NCBI GenBank assembly: GCA_011364965.1
Contig: RDOB01000002.1
Location: 1 to 64,000, forward strand
Length of the DNA stretch: 64,000 nucleotides
Origin: Candidatus Heimdallarchaeota archaeon
GTDB lineage: Archaea; Asgardarchaeota; Heimdallarchaeia; Hodarchaeales; Hodarchaeaceae
Direction: 5' to 3'
Below the pieces are notes generated by a model. The model did no database searches and was not told the origin of the DNA. It was given only the letters and a program-made list of their open reading frames with translations. Below, in pieces: positions 35,336-45,913 of this stretch; within the stretch, counting starts at the first letter, position 1; each line of letters opens with the position of its first letter. The translations under genes and the position numbers were made by a program.

Positions 35336-38197
35336 ATGTCTCGTTTCAACACTAAAACTTTGAGTCAGATTATCAAAACATACAGTAACACTAGAGATTT
35401 CTTAGTAAACAAAGAATCAAATATTTCTGATATAAAGATGAAAGTGCAATGTATTGACTTTTTTATGTCAGTAATTTTTTTGATTTGGAGTATGGAAAAA
35501 AACGGAGTTATAAAGAAATTATTTCTTATGTCACAATTAGAAGAATATGATCCAAATCAAAATTTAATGTCTTTTTCCTGTTTTCTTATAGATTCTATTG
35601 AGAAGCTCTTTTTAATAGCAGATTCATCTAATTATTTTACCAAAGAGGAATTTAATATTCTTAAACAAGCAGATCTTCCATTAAGTTGTTTTTATATATC
35701 CAAATCAAAGAAAACAGATGGGATTTTGTCTCAAAATATAGAAATTAATAATATTGAGGCTCTTCCTTTATTTAACCTTTTGGAGTATTTAGATTCATCA
35801 TTTGGAGCGGTCAATGAATATATTTTGGGAAAAATATTCGAATTCTTGTTATCTAAACAAGATCTGAGGAAAAAATTTGGTATCTACTATACGCCTAAGC
35901 AATTTACGGATTATATGTCAAAATTAACGATTGAAAACTATTTTATAGACCAATTAAATATCAAATTTGATATTAAATTAATAAATTTATCTAATTTCTA
36001 TGAGAAATTAGATCTAGATGTGGCAAATTGGGCAATTCATATATTGAAGACATTAAAAATCTTAGATCTGGCGTTAGGAACTGGTCAGTTCCTCATAAGT
36101 GCTATATACCAGCTTTTAGAGATCCATGAGCACGTCAGGAACTTTTACAGAGACAAAGGCTTAATTGAGGTTTTAATACAAGAACTCGAGCTTCAAAATG
36201 ATACCTTCGTTCTTGAAAATTTCCGAAATATCGAAGATGATAACTTTTTTAAGTGTTTAGTGATTAATAAGCTAATAATCCCTCGCAATTTGTATGGAGT
36301 AGACATTAATTTTATAGCTGTACAAATTGCAAAGATTAGATGCTTAATGATAATGGTAAAATTCTTTTCTTCTTCCAAAATGAGAGTTTCACTACTTGCA
36401 AAGATGAATCACAATTTAAAGCAAGGGAATGCATTATTAGGATATCTAGCTTGTCCCAATGATCGTGAAGTATCATATACTTCCTTAAATCAACTGAATT
36501 TAGATTATATAAGCCAATTTGGTATTGAAAGTATTTCGGAAAATGATTTCCCCTTATTTCACTGGTTTTACGAATTTAAGGATGTATTCATTCAAAATAG
36601 TAAATTTCAAGTGATTCTTACCAATCCTCCTTATATAGGAGAGAGTGGGAATAAAAAATTATTTCGTTTACATGCTAAGGCATTATCTGAATACTATGAA
36701 GGGAAAGCAGATCTTTGGTATTATTTCCTGCATAGAAGTATTAATTTATTGTCAGAAAATGGATATTGCACTTTTATTGCTCCTAATTACTGGATTACAG
36801 CGTCGGGAGCATCGTTATTAAGATCTAGGTTAAGTTCTGAGACAACTTTTGTTCGTTATATTAATTTTAATCAAAATTCTGTCTTTAATTCAGCACAGGG
36901 GGTTCATATTAATATTCTAACCGTTAAGAAAGGCATTAACCCTGAACAAAACTTTGAATGCACGGTTTTTAATGATGTTGTAGAAACTAAGGAATTGATT
37001 AAATCTCTCCCTGATCAACAAACATTCATACTTAAGCAGAATGAGTTACTTTTTAATGGATGGGATCCATATTTTCATTTTATCCCTAGAAAATACAGAA
37101 TTATCCTCGAATTTATTATTTCCAAATCTTATAAATTGAAGAATAAAGGATTCTACGTTAAAGAGGGTATTATTACAGGTATGAATACAATTTCGGGAAG
37201 ACAAATATCCCGCTATAATTTATCCCCCGATAAAAAGGGCATTGGAGTGTTTATATTAGATGTAAATCATCCTGAAGATGAAAAGTATATTCAATCTTTG
37301 TCAGAAATAGAAAAATCGATATTGAAACCATTTTATAAAAATTCGGATATAAAAAGATATTATTCAGCATTCAATACTTCAAGAAAGATTCAGTATCTTA
37401 ACAGAAATACCATAAACATAGTCCATTTACCTAGAGTACGTTATTTTCTTGAACAGTTTAAAGAAATCCTCAATGATTCTCTAGATAATCCCCCCTATTT
37501 AAATCGACCCCGAGATCCATTTATGTTTGTATCTCCCAAGATTATTACTCCCCAAAGAAGTAATCTTAATAGATTTGCTTATAATTCTTTAGATTGGTTT
37601 GCTGGACAGGATGTATATTATATTTTAAATGAAAAAAATGATAAAAATGAACTTAAAACTTTACTACTTATTTTAAATTCCAAACTGGCATATTACTGGT
37701 TTTATTGGATGGGAAAAAGAAAAGGGAAACAACTCGAATTATTCAGTGAACCATTGGGATATTTCCCGATTCCTGATTTGAAAGGTAATGATCTCCATAT
37801 ATTGGCTGATTATCTCTTATTTCTCAATTTACTGCATAATGAATCTGAGTCAGCTCGGATTACTAAATTATTAGCTTTTTTTAACAGGTTAGCGGAGCTG
37901 GCTGTTTTCGAGTTCTATTTTTCAGAATTATGTTATAAAAAGGGATTCAGTGAAACAAAGTATCCATTTTCATTCTATATTCAAGAAAATTTAAAAGAAT
38001 TAAATTTTGATGTTATTCTGGAAAATTTCAAAGAGAACTATGATTCAAATAGGAATTTTATTATTCTCTCAGATCAGATTGAAGTGATAGAAGAAGCTTA
38101 CTATAGTTTAAAGACTAATGAAGATATAAAATCCTCCATAAATAAAATTAATACTTTTCCAATGGTAAAAACAATTGCTAAATTTTCGAGCCTCTAA
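35336..38197 (+). CDS. Eco57I/TaqI-like gamma-class N6-adenine DNA methyltransferase with C-terminal specificity domain
   Basis: GIYYTP, ILDLALGTGQF, YGVDIN, GNAL, NPPY, ILNSKL; no recognisable nuclease motif. Confidence 0.88.
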   Translation: MSRFNTKTLSQIIKTYSNTRDFLVNKESNISDIKMKVQCIDFFMSVIFLIWSMEKNGVIKKLFLMSQLEEYDPNQNLMSFSCFLIDSIEKLFLIADSSNYFTKEEFNILKQADLPLSCFYISKSKKTDGILSQNIEINNIEALPLFNLLEYLDSSFGAVNEYILGKIFEFLLSKQDLRKKFGIYYTPKQFTDYMSKLTIENYFIDQLNIKFDIKLINLSNFYEKLDLDVANWAIHILKTLKILDLALGTGQFLISAIYQLLEIHEHVRNFYRDKGLIEVLIQELELQNDTFVLENFRNIEDDNFFKCLVINKLIIPRNLYGVDINFIAVQIAKIRCLMIMVKFFSSSKMRVSLLAKMNHNLKQGNALLGYLACPNDREVSYTSLNQLNLDYISQFGIESISENDFPLFHWFYEFKDVFIQNSKFQVILTNPPYIGESGNKKLFRLHAKALSEYYEGKADLWYYFLHRSINLLSENGYCTFIAPNYWITASGASLLRSRLSSETTFVRYINFNQNSVFNSAQGVHINILTVKKGINPEQNFECTVFNDVVETKELIKSLPDQQTFILKQNELLFNGWDPYFHFIPRKYRIILEFIISKSYKLKNKGFYVKEGIITGMNTISGRQISRYNLSPDKKGIGVFILDVNHPEDEKYIQSLSEIEKSILKPFYKNSDIKRYYSAFNTSRKIQYLNRNTINIVHLPRVRYFLEQFKEILNDSLDNPPYLNRPRDPFMFVSPKIITPQRSNLNRFAYNSLDWFAGQDVYYILNEKNDKNELKTLLLILNSKLAYYWFYWMGKRKGKQLELFSEPLGYFPIPDLKGNDLHILADYLLFLNLLHNESESARITKLLAFFNRLAELAVFEFYFSELCYKKGFSETKYPFSFYIQENLKELNFDVILENFKENYDSNRNFIILSDQIEVIEEAYYSLKTNEDIKSSINKINTFPMVKTIAKFSSL

Positions 38198-40484: not shown

Positions 40485-41378
40485 TTAAGAATTAATAAGC
40501 TTTTGAAGTCTTTTTACATAAGTCGAATTTTCAACTTTTTCTTTAAATTCCTGAGCATTTAAAAACCACCATACGTTCCACAATGCTCTATTTTTCCATC
40601 CTAAAGTTCCCCTTAATGTCAATTGCTCATAATTCTCAATAAATGGAGGTGAGTAACATTCAAATAATCTCTGATTCAAACCCTTTCCAAATTTCTTTTT
40701 ATAGAGCGCTTCATGAATATAAACAGATCCTTCGGGTGTATAACAGGAACACATAGCTGCATTTCTCCTCCATCCAATCCAGTCAATGGAATAAAGGTGG
40801 TTAAGAAAAGCAATTTGATGATATGGGCTACCTATTCCAAATCCATGGAAAAAGCAGTCTGAGCTGCTTTTTAAGATTCCCAACCACTCTGCAATTTCAT
40901 ATACACTACCTTTCTGGTTGATTTTTAAAGCCGGGACGACTCCTCCAAGCCCAATATATTTTTCGGATTTATAGTAATTCAAATTATCCGGATAATGTAC
41001 TACAGGCAAAATATTCATAGCAAATTTTCGATTTAATAGCTCCCAATTCCTCTTAGATTTCCTCGGATTACCAATTGAATCAAGATTAACTACTATATCT
41101 TCGGAACCTAGATTAATTCTCTTGAGAAATTGAACGTATTTAGAGATAGAAATTTCAACTCCAGAATTGAAAGCCGAATAAGCACCTGAATCAACAATAA
41201 TCGAACCATCCCAAGAAAAAAATTCCTTTAAACCTGACTGGATAATTTCAGATGTCTTTTTTCTGAAATTCCAGAAAGAAAATATAATTCCGACATCCAA
41301 TTTTTTCATTTTTTCCATGATTTTGACTTCTTCTAACCAAGGATACAGTCCTGGAACAATTCCTAAGTACAACTTCAT
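40485..41378 (-). CDS. TGT/DpdA-like guanine transglycosylase paralogue A
   Basis: WDGSIIVDSGAYS, NLD, PVVH, GLGG, FHGFG, SID; no CxCxxC-H Zn site or PUA domain. Confidence 0.72.
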   Translation of the reverse strand: MKLYLGIVPGLYPWLEEVKIMEKMKKLDVGIIFSFWNFRKKTSEIIQSGLKEFFSWDGSIIVDSGAYSAFNSGVEISISKYVQFLKRINLGSEDIVVNLDSIGNPRKSKRNWELLNRKFAMNILPVVHYPDNLNYYKSEKYIGLGGVVPALKINQKGSVYEIAEWLGILKSSSDCFFHGFGIGSPYHQIAFLNHLYSIDWIGWRRNAAMCSCYTPEGSVYIHEALYKKKFGKGLNQRLFECYSPPFIENYEQLTLRGTLGWKNRALWNVWWFLNAQEFKEKVENSTYVKRLQKLINS

Positions 41379-41526: not shown

Positions 41527-41985
41527 ATGAATTCAAATAAAGTATTGATTATTCTTTCTTGTGGAAAGAAGAAGTCAGAAAAATTATCTCAAGGAAAACT
41601 AAAGGCCTCTCAAGCGTATATTGGGCCAATGTTTCAGGTAATAAACAAAGCGAAGAGAGAAAGCAGATGGTCTGAGGATTTTTTTTTGGGTATTATATCA
41701 GCAAAATATGGATTTCTGAGAGAGAATCAGGAAATCGAATTTTACGACAAAAAAATGTCAAAAAAAAGAGCTTATGAGTTGAGAGATCAAGTGATTAATT
41801 CAATTCAGACTTGGAATTCAGAGGAGCAGTTTTCATTGATATATATTCTCATGGGGAAGATATATTTGTCCAGTGTGGAAAAATTGAAAGATTTTATAGA
41901 TACCAAAGTAATTATAGAGCCAATGGAAGGTTTAGGAATAGCTCAAAGAAAATTGCTCACCTTTTTGAAAAATCAAAACAAATGA
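41527..41985 (+). CDS. YaaA/DUF6884-like protein
   Basis: ILSCGKKK..ASQAYIGPMF..IISAKYGFL..IEFYD..MGKIY. Confidence 0.7.
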   Translation: MNSNKVLIILSCGKKKSEKLSQGKLKASQAYIGPMFQVINKAKRESRWSEDFFLGIISAKYGFLRENQEIEFYDKKMSKKRAYELRDQVINSIQTWNSEEQFSLIYILMGKIYLSSVEKLKDFIDTKVIIEPMEGLGIAQRKLLTFLKNQNK

Positions 41986-42024: not shown

Positions 42025-43041
42025 ATGATCTTTGCAATAGGCACCCCAGTAAATGCACATTTTCGTCCTTGGACATATGATTGGGCGCTAAAACCTGATG
42101 CTTTGATGATTTCAGCCATTGACTTCTTATCCAGCCCAAGGACGTATAAAAAGTTAAAGAGTAAGGGAATACATGATCTTTTGGCATGGGATGGCTCCAT
42201 TATTTGTGATTCAGGTGCATTTTCTGCTTTAAATCGGAAATCTGCTGTTACCATACAGTTAGAGGATTTATATGCATTATATGAGGAAATTAATAAACAA
42301 GATCCAAATATTCTTAAAATTACTTTAGATTTTCCTGACGATAGAATTATTGAAAATTATAAGAAGCTTTATCCTTTAGAAATAGAGCCTGTTGTACCTT
42401 TCAATAAAATTGAATTGATTGATTCGATATCGAGAATAACGGATGATTTAGATTGGTTATTTATTGGACGTCTTGTTCCATTAATGAGACAAGGTGGTGA
42501 TCACATTTCCAGACTCTCTCTGATATTTGATGTTTTTCGTGAGAAACTTAAAGAGAGAGCATTTACTCACAAAGTGAAACTTTGGGCTCTTGGAGTGGGT
42601 GCTCCAAGCATTCTCCCGTTTATTCGGAGTTTAGTTGAGGGATGTGATTCTTCCCGTTGGAGAGTTACGGGATCAAATATGATACTTTTACCAGCAGGTG
42701 GAGAACGAGGTGTTGGAAATCGTACAAAATGGCGGGGTACTCATCATCGAATTGATGATCAGAATGAACGACATCTGGTGATTAAAATTCTGAAAGATCT
42801 TGATACTCTCTCTGGAGGTTTTGAGAATATTGATCATTCTTTAACATATAATCAGCAACCTAAGCTGATAAAGGGAAGTTTTGAGATAAATTTGCCATCT
42901 ATTGGAGAGCTAATTACAAAAATACGCGAACACTCTGATCTTGTGACAGTTTACGAATTAGAACTCCTGTTAAGAACTTCTGGAAATTTAAGACTCATAT
43001 TTAATTATTGGTCAGCTTTAAATTTTAGTTCAACGGATTAG
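42025..43041 (+). CDS. TGT/DpdA-like guanine transglycosylase paralogue B
   Basis: GIHDLLAWDGSIICDSGAFS, TLDFP, WALGVG, GCDSSRW; no Zn site. Confidence 0.72.
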   Translation: MIFAIGTPVNAHFRPWTYDWALKPDALMISAIDFLSSPRTYKKLKSKGIHDLLAWDGSIICDSGAFSALNRKSAVTIQLEDLYALYEEINKQDPNILKITLDFPDDRIIENYKKLYPLEIEPVVPFNKIELIDSISRITDDLDWLFIGRLVPLMRQGGDHISRLSLIFDVFREKLKERAFTHKVKLWALGVGAPSILPFIRSLVEGCDSSRWRVTGSNMILLPAGGERGVGNRTKWRGTHHRIDDQNERHLVIKILKDLDTLSGGFENIDHSLTYNQQPKLIKGSFEINLPSIGELITKIREHSDLVTVYELELLLRTSGNLRLIFNYWSALNFSSTD

Positions 43042-43050
43042 TAATGAGTA

Positions 43051-45423
43051 ATGAACAGTCATAATTTATTAATTTGTCAACCATTGAATTCTGCTTTCGC
43101 GTTTCTTACTGAGATGAAAAAATTTAACTTCAAGTTAATACTTTGGGATTATCGATTCATATTTTTTCCAACTCCAAATCTTATCATAGAATCTCGTATT
43201 GAAGCCAATAATCCTCCAAACTTTAGGTTGATGGAAAATATAGATTTATTTTTATTTGATTTTGAAGAAAATCTCTCTTATTTGAAGCAGAACCTTAAAA
43301 ATTTTGGATTTATCGCTATTTTAATCAATGGTACACTTAAATTTAAAATTAAATCGATTTTGGACAAGGTTCTAGGTATTAGCACATTCCTAAATGAAAT
43401 TCTACTCGATTCACCATATCAGTTATCACATGACTCAAATAGACAAATCTTTGAAAGAACAGATTATATATTACTATATGGGAATCCAAGTAATCAAAGA
43501 GTCAATCCTGTATATAATGACAGGTTAAGTGGAGGATATTGGCATTCTTTTGTTTCAAAAGGTCAAGGATCAGCAAAAATATTTGTAAGAGATGGAAAGA
43601 AGATTGAGATTGCACCTCCACCTGGAACACACTGGAAGTTAAAACAGGAGACAATTCTGAAGTTCTGCCAAGAAGGATTAATCCGTTTCAATTCTAGTGG
43701 AAACCCTGAATACTGGGTAAAAGAGAAAAGAGGACAGATCATCGATACTAATTGGTTAGATATTGACTCTTTTGACACCCAAGGAAATATGATATGCAAT
43801 TCGAAATTTCTATATAAAAGACTCTTCAATCTAGTCTTAAAAGAAGGTGATCAATATTTAAATATCTTCTCGTCTGAAAATACATCTATTATATTAGCAA
43901 ATTCAAATAAAAATCCCTGGGTGAAAATTTACTCATCTGAAGTTCATTTGAAACCTGAAATCAATGAATTAAAAGGAAAAGGATTAACTTTTGAAGTATA
44001 TCAAGATAATCCATTCTCTATCCCTTCTTCAAATCACCACCATAAGATTTCTTCCCCTCCCCATGAAATAAACGCGGATGAAAAGGATATAGAAAATCCT
44101 ACTTTGTCAATCCATGAGTTATATAGCTCTCAGGATCCTGAAACTGTTGATTTATCTAAAGGTAAATGGATTAACAGTCTAATATTAGGAGATTGTTTTA
44201 TTGCTTTAACTTTGATTAAGAAACTTTTTAATGATAGAATTAAGTTGATATATATCGATCCTCCATATTTTACTGGGATTAATGAGATTATCACAATTCC
44301 AATTACACCTGAGAGTCATCACTTAATCGAAAAATTTGCATATCAAAATACAATTAACTCTACAGAACCGATTCAATTTTTTAAAAAATGGTTCAAAGTA
44401 AGATTGGATAAAATGAAAGAGCTCTTAGCGAATGATGGGCATATATTTGTTAGATATGACTATCATTTCGGGCATTATGCCAAATTAGTTCTTGATGAGG
44501 TGTTTGGGGTAGAAAATTTTGTCATTGAGTTATTTGTTAGGAGAATGAAGAAAAACCTCTCAAAGAAACAAGAGTACCATCAAAATCATTTAATTGTTCA
44601 TACTGATTCTCTATTTATCTATCGTAAGTCTAAAGATGCAGTATTAGATTTGAGAAAAATTACTAAAAGACATAAAAATGCTCAAGATATCGCTGAAAGA
44701 GAATTACATAATGATAATCTATGGATTGACATTACTGGATATGAAAAAGTGAAAAAAAGTCTCTATCCAACAGAGAATTCAGAAGTACTACTCAAGAGAC
44801 TTATTGAGATATCAACTGATCCTGGAGATATAATAGCTGACTTTTTTAGTGGATCTGGTACTACATTAGCTGTATCAGAAAAGTTAAAACGAAAATGGAT
44901 AGGTATTGACATTGGCTTGATGTCTATCAACGAAACAAAAAGAAGAATATTGAATCTACCGAATTTTCAGCCATTTGAGATATCAAGAGTAGTAGATAAA
45001 AAGAGGAGTTACAATATTGATTCAAGCGTTCCTGAATTTTTTCTTGGGATAGGAGGCAAAAAAAGGTTAGAAATTGATAAAAATGGGTTAGGGGTAACAA
45101 TAGAACTCCAACGGGATTATTCTGGTATTACTTTATATATAGTTCATTTTTCATCCCAGAAGATAGAGAATTTTCAACCTCTTACCACATTTCGATATTA
45201 TATTGACACTTGGGTACTTGATTGGTCTTATAATGGCTTTCAAATTAGGAGCACTTGGTTCTCGACTAGAAAAACAAAGGGGAAAAGGTTAATAAAACCT
45301 GTTGAAACATTTTGCAGATTTGAAGTTTTTAATAGAACTAAAATAGATTTAGCTTTGCTAATAACCGATATTTTTGGATTGGAATTAAATTATAAGTTTA
45401 AAATTATTTTGTTAAAACACTGA
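43051..45423 (+). CDS. Tandem beta-class (Mod-like) amino-DNA methyltransferase: inactive N-copy + active C-copy
   Basis: C-copy IYIDPPY and DFFSGSGTT; N-copy degenerate equivalents ILWDYRF and NIFSSENTS. Confidence 0.85.
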   Translation: MNSHNLLICQPLNSAFAFLTEMKKFNFKLILWDYRFIFFPTPNLIIESRIEANNPPNFRLMENIDLFLFDFEENLSYLKQNLKNFGFIAILINGTLKFKIKSILDKVLGISTFLNEILLDSPYQLSHDSNRQIFERTDYILLYGNPSNQRVNPVYNDRLSGGYWHSFVSKGQGSAKIFVRDGKKIEIAPPPGTHWKLKQETILKFCQEGLIRFNSSGNPEYWVKEKRGQIIDTNWLDIDSFDTQGNMICNSKFLYKRLFNLVLKEGDQYLNIFSSENTSIILANSNKNPWVKIYSSEVHLKPEINELKGKGLTFEVYQDNPFSIPSSNHHHKISSPPHEINADEKDIENPTLSIHELYSSQDPETVDLSKGKWINSLILGDCFIALTLIKKLFNDRIKLIYIDPPYFTGINEIITIPITPESHHLIEKFAYQNTINSTEPIQFFKKWFKVRLDKMKELLANDGHIFVRYDYHFGHYAKLVLDEVFGVENFVIELFVRRMKKNLSKKQEYHQNHLIVHTDSLFIYRKSKDAVLDLRKITKRHKNAQDIAERELHNDNLWIDITGYEKVKKSLYPTENSEVLLKRLIEISTDPGDIIADFFSGSGTTLAVSEKLKRKWIGIDIGLMSINETKRRILNLPNFQPFEISRVVDKKRSYNIDSSVPEFFLGIGGKKRLEIDKNGLGVTIELQRDYSGITLYIVHFSSQKIENFQPLTTFRYYIDTWVLDWSYNGFQIRSTWFSTRKTKGKRLIKPVETFCRFEVFNRTKIDLALLITDIFGLELNYKFKIILLKH

Positions 45424-45490
45424 TGTAATGATATTTCAGGGAAGTAGAAATAGAAAGTTGTTTAATGGATTTCATACAAAGGTGAGCGAT

Positions 45491-45913
45491 ATGACAGTTT
45501 ATCAATCTAAAATTCAATTAAAAGAGACTTTTGAGACAGAAATTGTGAATATTACAACTAACATACAACAAGAAGTTGATAAATCCGGCATCAAGAATGG
45601 CATAGCCACAATTTTTAATGTAGGATCGACTGGAGGTATTTTAACTTTGGAATATGAACCAGGATTGTTAAAAGATATTCCTGCATATTTAGAACGTACG
45701 ATTCCGAAAAGTAGCATAAAATATGAACATGAGAAAACTTGGCATGATGACAATGGTCATTCTCATGTACGAGCATCAATTATCGGTCCCTCTTTAACTG
45801 TACCAATAACACAGGGAAAATTGATTCATGGAACATGGCAACAAGTAGCATTTATGGAATTAGATACCCGTCCTCGTCGAAGAGGGTTACATATTACTAT
45901 TATTGGAGAATGA
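45491..45913 (+). CDS. YjbQ/UPF0047 family protein
   Basis: GSTGG, EYEPGL, YEH, NGHSH, GTWQ; ATG 45491 behind GGTGA. Confidence 0.9.
   Translation: MTVYQSKIQLKETFETEIVNITTNIQQEVDKSGIKNGIATIFNVGSTGGILTLEYEPGLLKDIPAYLERTIPKSSIKYEHEKTWHDDNGHSHVRASIIGPSLTVPITQGKLIHGTWQQVAFMELDTRPRRRGLHITIIGE

What the first reader, a model, noticed from the sequence alone, without database searches (positions are those of the whole stretch)
43051..45423. Single-chain pseudo-dimeric beta-class methyltransferase: dead copy with TRD fused to active copy without TRD
Seen: an internal duplication. KLILWDYRF pairs with KLIYIDPPY, TDYILLY with TDSLFIY, and NSKFLYKRLFNLVLKEGDQYLNIFSSENTS with NSEVLLKRLIEISTDPGDIIADFFSGSGTT. 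The N-copy has lost both catalytic motifs but keeps a long insert at the target-recognition position (GGYWHSF..PPPGTHWKL..EGLIRF..PEYW). The C-copy has intact motifs and only a short loop there. Established: beta-class enzymes such as EcoP15I Mod work as dimers in which one subunit recognises DNA and the other methylates. Inference: that division of labour is hard-wired into one polypeptide. No Res helicase gene is adjacent.
Basis: partly seen in the sequence, partly recalled or inferred. Interest (0 to 1): 0.75.

Follow-up and report, generated by a model that had tools for sequence, protein, structure and literature searches.

The report
Fused dead-plus-live DNA methyltransferase
One gene of an Asgard archaeon joins a chemically dead copy of a restriction-type DNA methylase, kept for its DNA-reading insert, to a live copy that lacks that insert, so a job that two subunits normally share appears to be built into one chain that has lost its restriction partner.

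Summary
ORF 43051-45423 (790 aa) holds two beta-class amino-methyltransferase folds (profile-profile E 2e-18; each half Z about 21-25 to Type III Mods, MboIIA and CcrM). The N-lobe has lost motif IV (WDYR for DPPY) and motif I. It keeps an 88-residue insert at the TRD position, which is the best-conserved part of the protein (72% mean pairwise identity).

This is not a recent internal duplication. The two lobes are orthologues of two separate genes that flank a Type III Res helicase-nuclease in other Asgard contigs, in the order dead Mod, Res, live Mod. The fused protein is a Res-less descendant of that pair.

It is syntenic in all 18 species genomes that hold it (mostly labelled Hodarchaeota/Heimdallarchaeota). 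It sits in a tight operon with two TGT/DpdA-like genes, DUF6884 and YjbQ.

The packing of the lobes, the target and the methylated base were not tested.

The scan has already reported orthologues of this protein in other genomes, with the same reading. I found no paper describing it. I rate it a new variant of a known kind, of moderate to high interest.

The parts
43051..45423 (+). Whole gene: 790-aa fused dead-plus-live beta-class DNA methyltransferase
   Evidence: Intact ORF. About 55 full-length homologues at 34-46% identity, nearly all labelled Asgard. AF2 model pLDDT 81.9, pTM 0.84.
43051..43497 (+). N-lobe, first part of the dead MTase core (aa 1-149)
   Evidence: Aligns to the C-lobe core and to Type III Mods. 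Mean pairwise identity in the family is only 0.38.
43132..43158 (+). Decayed motif IV of the N-lobe (KLILWDYRF, aa 28-36, in place of KLIYIDPPY)
   Evidence: hhalign column match. The family consensus is LIFLDLS; none of the 46 members has (D/N/S)PP(Y/F).
43498..43761 (+). N-lobe insert at the TRD position (aa 150-237: SGGYWHSF..PPPGTHWKLKQETIL..IRF..PEYWV..NWLD)
   Evidence: Absent from the C-lobe. Many invariant columns. Mean pairwise identity 0.72, the highest of any region. Aligns with 6k0w Mod residues 317-344.
43762..44010 (+). N-lobe, second part of the dead core (aa 238-320), with decayed motif I (NIFSSENTS at 43861-43887)
   Evidence: BLASTP to C-lobe aa 555-644, E 6e-6. FxGxG is lost in the family; the consensus is LDLSxxxGxS. 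Identity 0.28.
44011..44157 (+). Inter-lobe linker (aa 321-369)
   Evidence: pLDDT under 50 for aa 321-344. Identity 0.16.
44158..45000 (+). C-lobe: live MTase core (aa 370-650), with motif IV DPPY at 44257-44268 and motif I FFSGSG at 44842-44859
   Evidence: Pfam PF01555, 2.5e-41. VIA Z 24.8 to 6k0w Mod, 23.9 to EcoP15I Mod, 21.7 to CcrM. D403, P404, P405, G601, S602 and T604 are invariant.
45001..45420 (+). C-terminal all-beta domain, PKD/Ig-like (aa 651-790)
   Evidence: All-beta in the model. The profile hits the ColH PKD domain at 6.7e-4. Pfam PKD_4/PKD in 9 of 23 members. Also present in the split live and dead subunits.
42025..43041 (+). Upstream operon partner: TGT-superfamily-like protein B (338 aa), 9 bp before the MTase
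   Evidence: Weak TGT hits. Adjacent in 17 of the 18 relatives' loci (the 18th locus starts inside the MTase). Same order-restricted distribution as the MTase.
41527..41985 (+). Operon partner: DUF6884 (YaaA/DpdC-like) protein
   Evidence: Pfam DUF6884, 1.5e-13. PADLOC PDC-M57A 1e-13 and DpdC 3e-3. Syntenic.
40485..41378 (-). Divergent neighbour: TGT-like protein A, phage-DpdA-like
   Evidence: phrog_887, 5e-26. Present in 13 of the 18 relatives' loci.
45428..45913 (+). Downstream operon partner: YjbQ/UPF0047 protein, 4 bp after the MTase stop
   Evidence: Pfam, 6e-33. Syntenic in all 18 loci.

Best explanation
The gene encodes a single-chain stand-in for a heterodimeric Type III-type Mod methyltransferase.

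Shown:
- The protein has two beta-class MTase folds in tandem.
- The N-lobe has lost the catalytic motif IV and the SAM-binding motif I. It keeps a highly conserved insert at the TRD position.
- The C-lobe has both motifs, almost no TRD, and a PKD-like tail.
- The two lobes are orthologues of two separate genes. In other Asgard contigs these genes flank a Type III Res helicase-nuclease in the order dead Mod, Res, live Mod.
- In the genomes searched, the fused, Res-less form is near-universal in the window's own GTDB order and is syntenic there. Single copies turned up in one other Asgard family and in a metagenome contig.

Inferred:
- The two lobes pack like the two protomers of a Mod2 dimer. 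The N-lobe insert and the C-lobe active site would then face one DNA duplex.
- The N-lobe reads the site and the C-lobe flips and methylates one base (N6-adenine or N4-cytosine) on one strand.
- Because the insert hardly varies, the target is probably the same across the family. The enzyme therefore acts as an orphan, housekeeping-type DNA methylase rather than a specificity-switching restriction component.
- Its tight operon with two TGT/DpdA-like proteins and a YaaA/DpdC-like protein suggests it works within a DNA-modification module.
For: - Tandem folds: hhalign of N-halves against C-halves gives E 2.2e-18. The N-half model has Z 20.8-21.9 and the C-half Z 21.7-24.8 to EcoP15I, Mbo45V and 6k0w Mods, MboIIA and CcrM.
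- Motif loss in all 46 members.
- Regional conservation: insert 0.72, live core 0.60, dead core 0.28-0.38.
- Split operons: G244 has a 599-aa dead Mod, an 872-aa Res (ResIII 3e-20, RE_endonuc 5e-9) and a 611-aa live Mod. Metagenome contig L092 has the same order.
- Orthology of the lobes: N-lobe to the split dead subunit, 40% identity, E 7e-43. C-lobe to the split live subunit, 47% identity, E 4e-73.
- ML tree: the dead clade has SH-aLRT 100 and the live clade 99. Both join the single-copy active, TRD-bearing P0146 at 96.
- Whole-chain pTM 0.84 suggests a defined packing of the lobes.
- Synteny in 18 of 18 species loci, with 0-12 bp between TGT-like B and the MTase, or a 4-bp overlap, in several of them.
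- Established knowledge: beta-class MTases work as dimers in which the TRD of one subunit faces the catalytic site of the other. Heterodimers carry an eroded motif IV in the non-catalytic partner (PMC7544214, PMC4490356).
Against: - The relative placement of the two lobes could not be compared with the Mod2 dimer, because no model coordinates were available.
- No methylome, target motif or activity data exist.
- The insert is only about 88 residues and nearly invariant, unlike the variable TRDs of restriction Mods. It may be a scaffold or a reader of something other than a sequence.
- The PKD-like tail and the short C-lobe loop might by themselves provide DNA binding, as in CcrM.
- Motif IV DPPY/F does not tell m6A from m4C (PMC8259958).
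- The operon partners belong to a superfamily best known for tRNA work, so an RNA substrate is not excluded.
Confidence: 0.65

Rival explanations
1. The protein does not act as an intramolecular pseudo-dimer. The live C-lobes of two chains pair with each other, as in CcrM or MboIIA homodimers. The dead N-lobe is then an accessory module for DNA clamping, regulation, or docking of the TGT-like or DUF6884 partners.
For: The C-lobe with its C-terminal domain resembles the CcrM layout, Z 21.7. Related live forms of about 500 aa (core plus tail) stand alone in many genomes of another Asgard family, with no dead partner found in the four genomes checked. Lobe packing was not verified.
Against: The dead and live subunits occur as a conserved gene pair around Res in two loci. 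The N-lobe's most conserved part is exactly the insert at the TRD position. pTM 0.84 for the single chain argues for a fixed N-C arrangement.
Confidence: 0.15
2. It is an RNA (tRNA or rRNA) methyltransferase that works with the neighbouring TGT-family enzymes in an RNA-modification operon. The invariant insert recognises a fixed RNA substrate.
For: The operon partners are TGT-superfamily proteins. The recognition insert is invariant and the gene is inherited vertically and syntenically across an order, as for housekeeping RNA enzymes. Some beta-class MTases accept RNA (PMC7544214).
Against: Both lobes are orthologues of subunits of Type III restriction operons with Res. The nearest solved relatives are all DNA MTases. 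TGT-like A matches the PHROG family named 'queuine tRNA-ribosyltransferase', which I take from my own knowledge to be the phage DpdA type. DUF6884 is YaaA-like and proposed to bind DNA (PMC11701544).
Confidence: 0.1
3. It is still the modification arm of a restriction system whose nuclease is encoded elsewhere, for example the syntenic Type IIG-like gene at 35336-38197 or a distant helicase-nuclease.
For: An Eco57I/MmeI-type gene lies 5 kb upstream and is syntenic in about 10 of 18 relatives. The genome has ten ResIII-domain ORFs.
Against: Type IIG enzymes carry their own methylase. No relative of the Asgard Res was found in this genome, and none of the ResIII hits lies within 30 kb. An invariant recognition insert and strict vertical synteny are unlike restriction systems.
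Confidence: 0.07

Closest known systems
EcoP15I Mod2 and other Type III Mod homodimers (PDB 4ZCF, 6K0W, 7DSU; PMC4490356)
   Same: Beta-class fold in both lobes (Z 21-25). A TRD-position insert with the shared PPxGxxW(K/R)..Q.TI motif. The documented division of labour, in which one protomer reads DNA and the other methylates. Split relatives sit next to a Res helicase-nuclease.
   Different: Here there are two different, covalently joined protomers, one of them permanently dead. There is no Res. The recognition insert is short and invariant. There is an added PKD-like tail. The gene is chromosomal, syntenic and confined to one order.
METTL3-METTL14 and ciliate MTA1-MTA9 (MT-A70 heterodimers; PMC7544214)
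   Same: The same logic: a live subunit paired with a paralogue whose motif IV is eroded and which serves substrate binding.
   Different: Those are separate polypeptides of the MT-A70 branch. Structural similarity is much lower (Z 9.7-13.1, against 21-25 for prokaryotic Mods), and Pfam reported no MT-A70 match. No specific kinship is shown.
RsmC and similar tandem MTases with an inactive N-terminal copy (PMC1934991; review PMC10908127)
   Same: A single chain made of a duplicated MTase fold, in which the dead N-copy serves substrate binding and the C-copy catalysis.
   Different: RsmC is an rRNA m2G enzyme of a different MTase class and has no restriction ancestry.
CcrM (PDB 6PBD)
   Same: An orphan beta-class DNA MTase with a short TRD loop and a C-terminal DNA-binding domain. 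The two protomers have asymmetric roles.
   Different: CcrM is a homodimer of two live chains. Its C-terminal domain was not shown here to be related to the PKD-like tail.

Membership tests
Beta-class amino-MTase (Pfam PF01555 N6_N4_Mtase) | Motif order IV before I, with (D/N/S)PP(Y/F) and FxGxG present | tested here: met
   C-lobe: DPPY at aa 403-406 and FSGSG at aa 599-603; PF01555 E 2.5e-41. N-lobe: the order is kept but both motifs are lost, so it is a pseudo-enzyme member.
Beta-class amino-MTase (Pfam PF01555 N6_N4_Mtase) | Beta-class MTase fold in each half | tested here: met
   Predicted models only. N-half Z 21.9 (MboIIA, rmsd 3.0, 222 aligned). C-half Z 24.8 (6k0w, rmsd 3.0, 260 aligned).
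Type III R-M Mod subunit | TRD inserted between the motif IV-VIII block and the motif X-I block | tested here: met
   The N-lobe insert, aa 150-237, lies at that position and shares the PPxGxxWK motif with 6k0w Mod. The C-lobe has only about 40 residues there.
Type III R-M Mod subunit | Adjacent Res (SF2 helicase plus PD-(D/E)XK nuclease) gene | tested here: not met
   No Res in the window's neighbourhood or in 18 syntenic loci. No relative of the Asgard Res in the 87%-complete genome. Res is present in the split relatives G244 and L092.
Type III R-M Mod subunit | Mod2 dimer geometry, with the TRD of one protomer facing the active site of the other | not testable with these tools
   Model coordinates are not readable. 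The only evidence is pTM 0.84 for the whole chain.
MT-A70 (METTL3/METTL14, MTA1/MTA9) | Sequence membership in the MT-A70 family | tested here: not met
   Pfam lists only PF01555, and DUF4635 at chance level, at E up to 0.1. Fold similarity is Z 9.7-13.1, well below that to prokaryotic Mods.
Dpd-type 7-deazaguanine DNA modification system (context only) | DpdA transglycosylase with DpdB ATPase and DpdC | tested here: inconclusive
   TGT-like A hits phrog_887 at 5e-26. DUF6884 hits DpdC only at 3e-3. No PADLOC DpdA or DpdB hit. PDB sequence matches of the TGT-like proteins are at chance level.

The most novel reading that the evidence does not exclude
The fused enzyme is the methylation arm of an order-wide DNA base-exchange system of Asgard archaea, made of the two DpdA-like transglycosylases and a YaaA/DpdC-like protein. 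In this reading the invariant dead-lobe insert does not read a plain sequence. It reads the exchanged (7-deazaguanine-type) base or the complex that installs it, and the live lobe then methylates a neighbouring base or an exocyclic amine of the inserted base. The result would be a compound epigenetic mark in the archaeal lineage that some studies place closest to eukaryotes.
Probability: 0.12. Interest if true: 0.85.

Novelty: new variant of a known kind. Interest (0 to 1): 0.6.

Why it matters
Beta-class DNA methylases are thought to need a partner because their reading domain points away from their own active site. So far this has been seen as homodimers with hidden asymmetry (EcoP15I, CcrM) or as eukaryotic heterodimers with one eroded subunit (METTL3-METTL14, MTA1-MTA9).

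This family shows the whole series in prokaryotes:
1. An ordinary Mod plus Res pair.
2. A three-gene operon with a dead reader Mod and a live writer Mod around Res.
3. A single fused chain without Res.

That gives a natural, genetically simple system to test the division-of-labour model. One can cut the chain, swap the insert or delete the tail. It also shows how a restriction enzyme part can be domesticated into a conserved chromosomal methylase.

The fixed recognition insert and the operon with DpdA-like genes point to an undescribed DNA-marking pathway in Hodarchaeales.

Tried and rejected
Contexts came from the genome search, the fetch from genomes and the search for related loci instead.
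- The first genome-contig scan, with the single N-half, found nothing. The N-half alignment then found 18 loci.
- I looked for a separate N-half-like gene in four genomes that carry the roughly 500-aa live forms and in a closed 1.4-Mb Asgard genome (G001). Only the live MTase itself matched, weakly.
- DpdM, the known dPreQ1 methylase, is a DUF3109 protein and not PF01555, so this enzyme is not DpdM.
- G219 seemed to have TGT-like B without the MTase. That locus holds a 200-N scaffold gap, so it says nothing.
- A homodimeric 'internal duplication in place' is rejected in favour of the fusion of old paralogues.
- The idea that motif IV tells m6A from m4C is rejected, because m4C Type III Mods also have DPPY/F.
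- Literature searches for Asgard plus DpdA, for pseudodimeric or tandem DNA MTases, and for Type III systems with two Mod genes found no description of this architecture. The library is partial and REBASE could not be searched.
- PDB sequence searches with the two TGT-like proteins gave only chance-level hits.
Full report
**What is there**

The ORF at 43051-45423 (+) is intact and encodes 790 aa. Pfam places a strong N6_N4_Mtase domain on aa 397-623 (E 2.5e-41). The first 350 residues alone reach the same model only at E 1.3e-3, below the curated cut-off.

The two halves align with each other at E 6e-6 (BLASTP). I built profiles of the N-halves and C-halves from 18 orthologues. With these the match becomes hhalign probability 99%, E 2.2e-18 over 260 columns.
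- KLILWDYRF with KLIYIDPPY
- TDYILLY with TDSLFIY
- NSKFLYKRL...NIFSSENTS with NSEVLLKRL...DFFSGSGTT

It also shows an insert of about 80 residues in the N-half (aa 150-237) where the C-half has only a short stretch.

**Folds**

An AlphaFold2 model of the whole chain, made from a 46-sequence alignment, has pLDDT 81.9 and pTM 0.84. The linker at aa 321-344 is disordered and aa 651-790 form an all-beta domain.

The C-lobe matches several solved structures:
- 6k0w Mod: Z 24.8, rmsd 3.0, 260 aligned
- EcoP15I Mod: Z 23.9
- Mbo45V Mod: Z 23.0
- MboIIA: Z 22.6
- CcrM: Z 21.7

The N-half was modelled on its own (pLDDT 83.4) and compared with 48,161 representative chains. Its best matches are the same group:
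- MboIIA: Z 21.9
- Mbo45V Mod: Z 21.7
- 6k0w Mod: Z 21.3
- EcoP15I Mod: Z 20.8, with 293 of 320 residues aligned
- CcrM: Z 20.8

MT-A70 proteins follow at Z 9.7-13.1, and unrelated folds score below 7.5.

**Dead and live**

None of the 46 aligned family members has a (D/N/S)PP(Y/F) motif or an FxGxG motif in the N-copy. The consensus there is LIFLDLS and LDLSxxxGxS, and this window reads LILWDYR and NIFSSEN. In the C-copy, D403, P404, P405, G601, S602 and T604 are invariant.

Mean pairwise identity by region shows where selection acts:

| Region | Mean pairwise identity |
|---|---|
| N-lobe insert | 0.72 |
| Live core | 0.58-0.62 |
| Dead core | 0.28-0.38 |
| C-terminal tail | 0.31 |
| Linker | 0.16 |

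The dead copy therefore seems to be kept for its insert. Part of the insert (PPPGTHWKLKQETILKFCQEGLIRF) aligns with residues 317-344 of the 6k0w Mod, at the end of its TRD.

Its profile hits the ColH PKD domain at 6.7e-4. Pfam PKD_4 or PKD matches 9 of 23 members, and also the split live subunit.

**Where the family is**

About 55 full-length homologues of 745-870 aa at 34-46% identity are in the protein collection. Nearly all those that carry names are labelled Asgard.

Counts among GTDB species genomes:
- The window's own genus: 18 of 21 with the split-dead-form profile. Of the three without a match to that query, G062 holds a C-terminal fragment at a contig edge, and two are about 70% complete, one of them with an N gap at the locus.
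- The sister family of the same order: 1 of 2.
- The other families of the class: no fused form was seen. Two of those families (0/31 and 0/12 with the first query) have no match or only weak partial matches.
- One fused copy is in another Asgard family (G356) and one in a metagenome contig (L093).

A pattern scan with the N-half alignment returned 18 species loci, mostly labelled Hodarchaeota or Heimdallarchaeota.

**Origin**

A profile search with the N-half against 1.84 billion representatives found three kinds of single-copy relatives:
- Active MTases that have both the insert and the tail. P0146 (646 aa) has DPPF, the PPNGRHW..QETI insert, YPTENSE, FFGGSGTT and the tail.
- Forms of about 335 aa that are active and carry the insert but no tail.
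- Forms of 580-600 aa with an eroded motif IV (DLP, ELP or NLT). These come from Asgard MAGs.

One such eroded form lies in genome G244 within a tight minus-strand operon:
- A 599-aa dead Mod, with IDLPY, the insert, a spacer and the tail.
- An 872-aa Res (ResIII 3e-20, RE_endonuc 5e-9).
- A 611-aa live Mod, with DPPF, YPTENS, FFCGSGTT, a spacer and the PKD tail.

A second, distinct contig (L092) has the same three genes in the same order, with overlapping stops and starts.

The window's N-lobe is 40% identical to the G244 dead subunit (E 7e-43). Its C-lobe is 47% identical to the G244 live subunit (E 4e-73). The two lobes are only 19% identical to each other in the profile alignment.

In a maximum-likelihood tree of 46 cores:
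- All dead lobes and dead subunits form one clade (SH-aLRT 100).
- All live lobes and the G244 live subunit form another (99).
- Both clades join P0146 (96).

So an active, insert-bearing Mod duplicated. One copy lost its chemistry and the other lost its insert. The pair served a Type III enzyme as two genes around res. In the ancestor of this order the res gene, and the spacer and tail of the dead gene, were lost, which joined the two in the same order.

The G356 fusion may be independent, but its branch is long. Ordinary Mod-Res pairs of the same kin occur in G001, a closed 1.4-Mb Asgard genome, and in contig L095.

**Context**

The gene order is conserved across the 18 species loci: TGT-like A (minus strand), then DUF6884, TGT-like B, the MTase, YjbQ, a 149-aa ORF, and TFB (minus strand). 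The MTase and YjbQ are present in all 18; the other genes are missing only where a contig ends, or in a few loci.
- In this window the gaps between the plus-strand genes are 39, 9 and 4 bp. In several relatives TGT-like B and the MTase abut or overlap.
- Seven relatives carry an MFS transporter gene between TGT-like B and the MTase.
- TGT-like A matches the PHROG family phrog_887, named 'queuine tRNA-ribosyltransferase', at 5e-26. That these phage members are DpdA-type enzymes is my own knowledge, not a tool result.
- DUF6884 matches the PADLOC candidate PDC-M57A at 1e-13 and DpdC at 3e-3. Pfam's curators describe DUF6884 as YaaA-like and probably DNA-binding (PMC11701544).
- TGT-like B has the same order-restricted distribution as the MTase.
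- The distant fused copy in G356 lies beside a QueT transporter. The split operons and L093 have no such neighbours.

These links suggest a DNA-modification module but do not prove one.

No Res lies near the gene. The G244-type Res has no relative in this 87%-complete genome, and the nearest ResIII-domain ORF is 35 kb away.

**How it most likely works**

Published structures show that in beta-class MTases the TRD of one protomer and the catalytic pocket of the other form a single DNA-binding surface. In EcoP15I one Mod reads the site and the other methylates. Heterodimers such as METTL3-METTL14 have an eroded motif IV in the non-catalytic partner (PMC7544214, PMC4490356).

The anatomy here fits a covalent version of that arrangement. 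The N-lobe insert would read, and the C-lobe would methylate one base on one strand. The PKD-like tail may add DNA contacts.

This step is inferred. I could not read the model coordinates, so the lobe packing is untested apart from the high whole-chain pTM. The base cannot be called from motif IV, because m4C Type III Mods also carry DPPY/F (PMC8259958). The near-invariant insert argues for one fixed target across the family.

**Rivals**

Four alternatives are considered, with rough weights where I assigned them:
- A C-C homodimer with the N-lobe as an accessory (0.15).
- An RNA substrate in a TGT operon (0.10).
- A hidden restriction partner elsewhere in the genome (0.07).
- The dead lobe reads a base installed by the DpdA-like enzymes. 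This is the most novel reading that the evidence does not exclude.

**Novelty**

Dead-plus-live pairs are known as heterodimers, and tandem MTases with a dead copy are known in other classes (RsmC, PMC1934991; review PMC10908127). I found no description of a fused beta-class Mod pseudo-dimer, nor of a Type III operon with two different Mods. The paper library is partial and REBASE was not available.

The scan has already reported orthologues of this protein in several other genomes, with the same conclusions, including the split three-gene relatives. My analysis reached these points independently and agrees with those reports.

Noticed in passing
window 35336-38197 (+): A 953-aa Eco57I/MmeI-type (Type IIG-like) methylase with a TaqI_C specificity domain. 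It lies upstream of the cluster in about 10 of 18 relatives, which is unusually stable for a restriction-type gene.
   Followed up: partly
window 40485-41378 (-) and 42025-43041 (+): Two diverged TGT-superfamily paralogues. A matches phrog_887 at 5e-26; B matches it only at 6e-3. B is restricted to the same order as the fused MTase (22 of 23 genomes of the order, 0 of 59 in the other families of the class).
   Followed up: partly
window 41527-41985 (+): The DUF6884 protein matches the PADLOC defence candidate PDC-M57A (1e-13), and weakly matches DpdC and YaaA.
   Followed up: no
L036:2280-3590, L040:4849-7858 and five other relatives: An MFS transporter gene is inserted between TGT-like B and the MTase in 7 of 18 relatives. 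In L040 a 533-aa ORF with no Pfam match lies there as well.
   Followed up: partly
L080:1456-8250 (genome G356): A distant fused dead-plus-live MTase lies beside a QueT 7-deazaguanine-precursor transporter, two further N6_N4 MTases and a dCTP-deaminase-like gene.
   Followed up: partly
L079:6271-12519 (G244) and L092:2-5740: Three-gene Type III-like operons with two different Mod genes (a dead one with TRD and a live one without) around Res. I found no description of this restriction-enzyme layout in the papers searched. In G244 a DpnII/MboI-type REase gene and an integrase-like gene lie nearby.
   Followed up: partly
window 45428-45913 (+): A YjbQ/UPF0047 gene follows the MTase by 4 bp and is syntenic in all 18 relatives. 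Its link to the modification genes is unexplained.
   Followed up: no
C-lobe aa 573-578 (window 44767-44784): The live lobe, its split relatives and P0146 read YPTENSE where most beta-class MTases have a (H/Y)PTxKP motif (my own knowledge). The dead lobe keeps the NS (CNSKF). This is a shared derived trait of the clade.
   Followed up: partly
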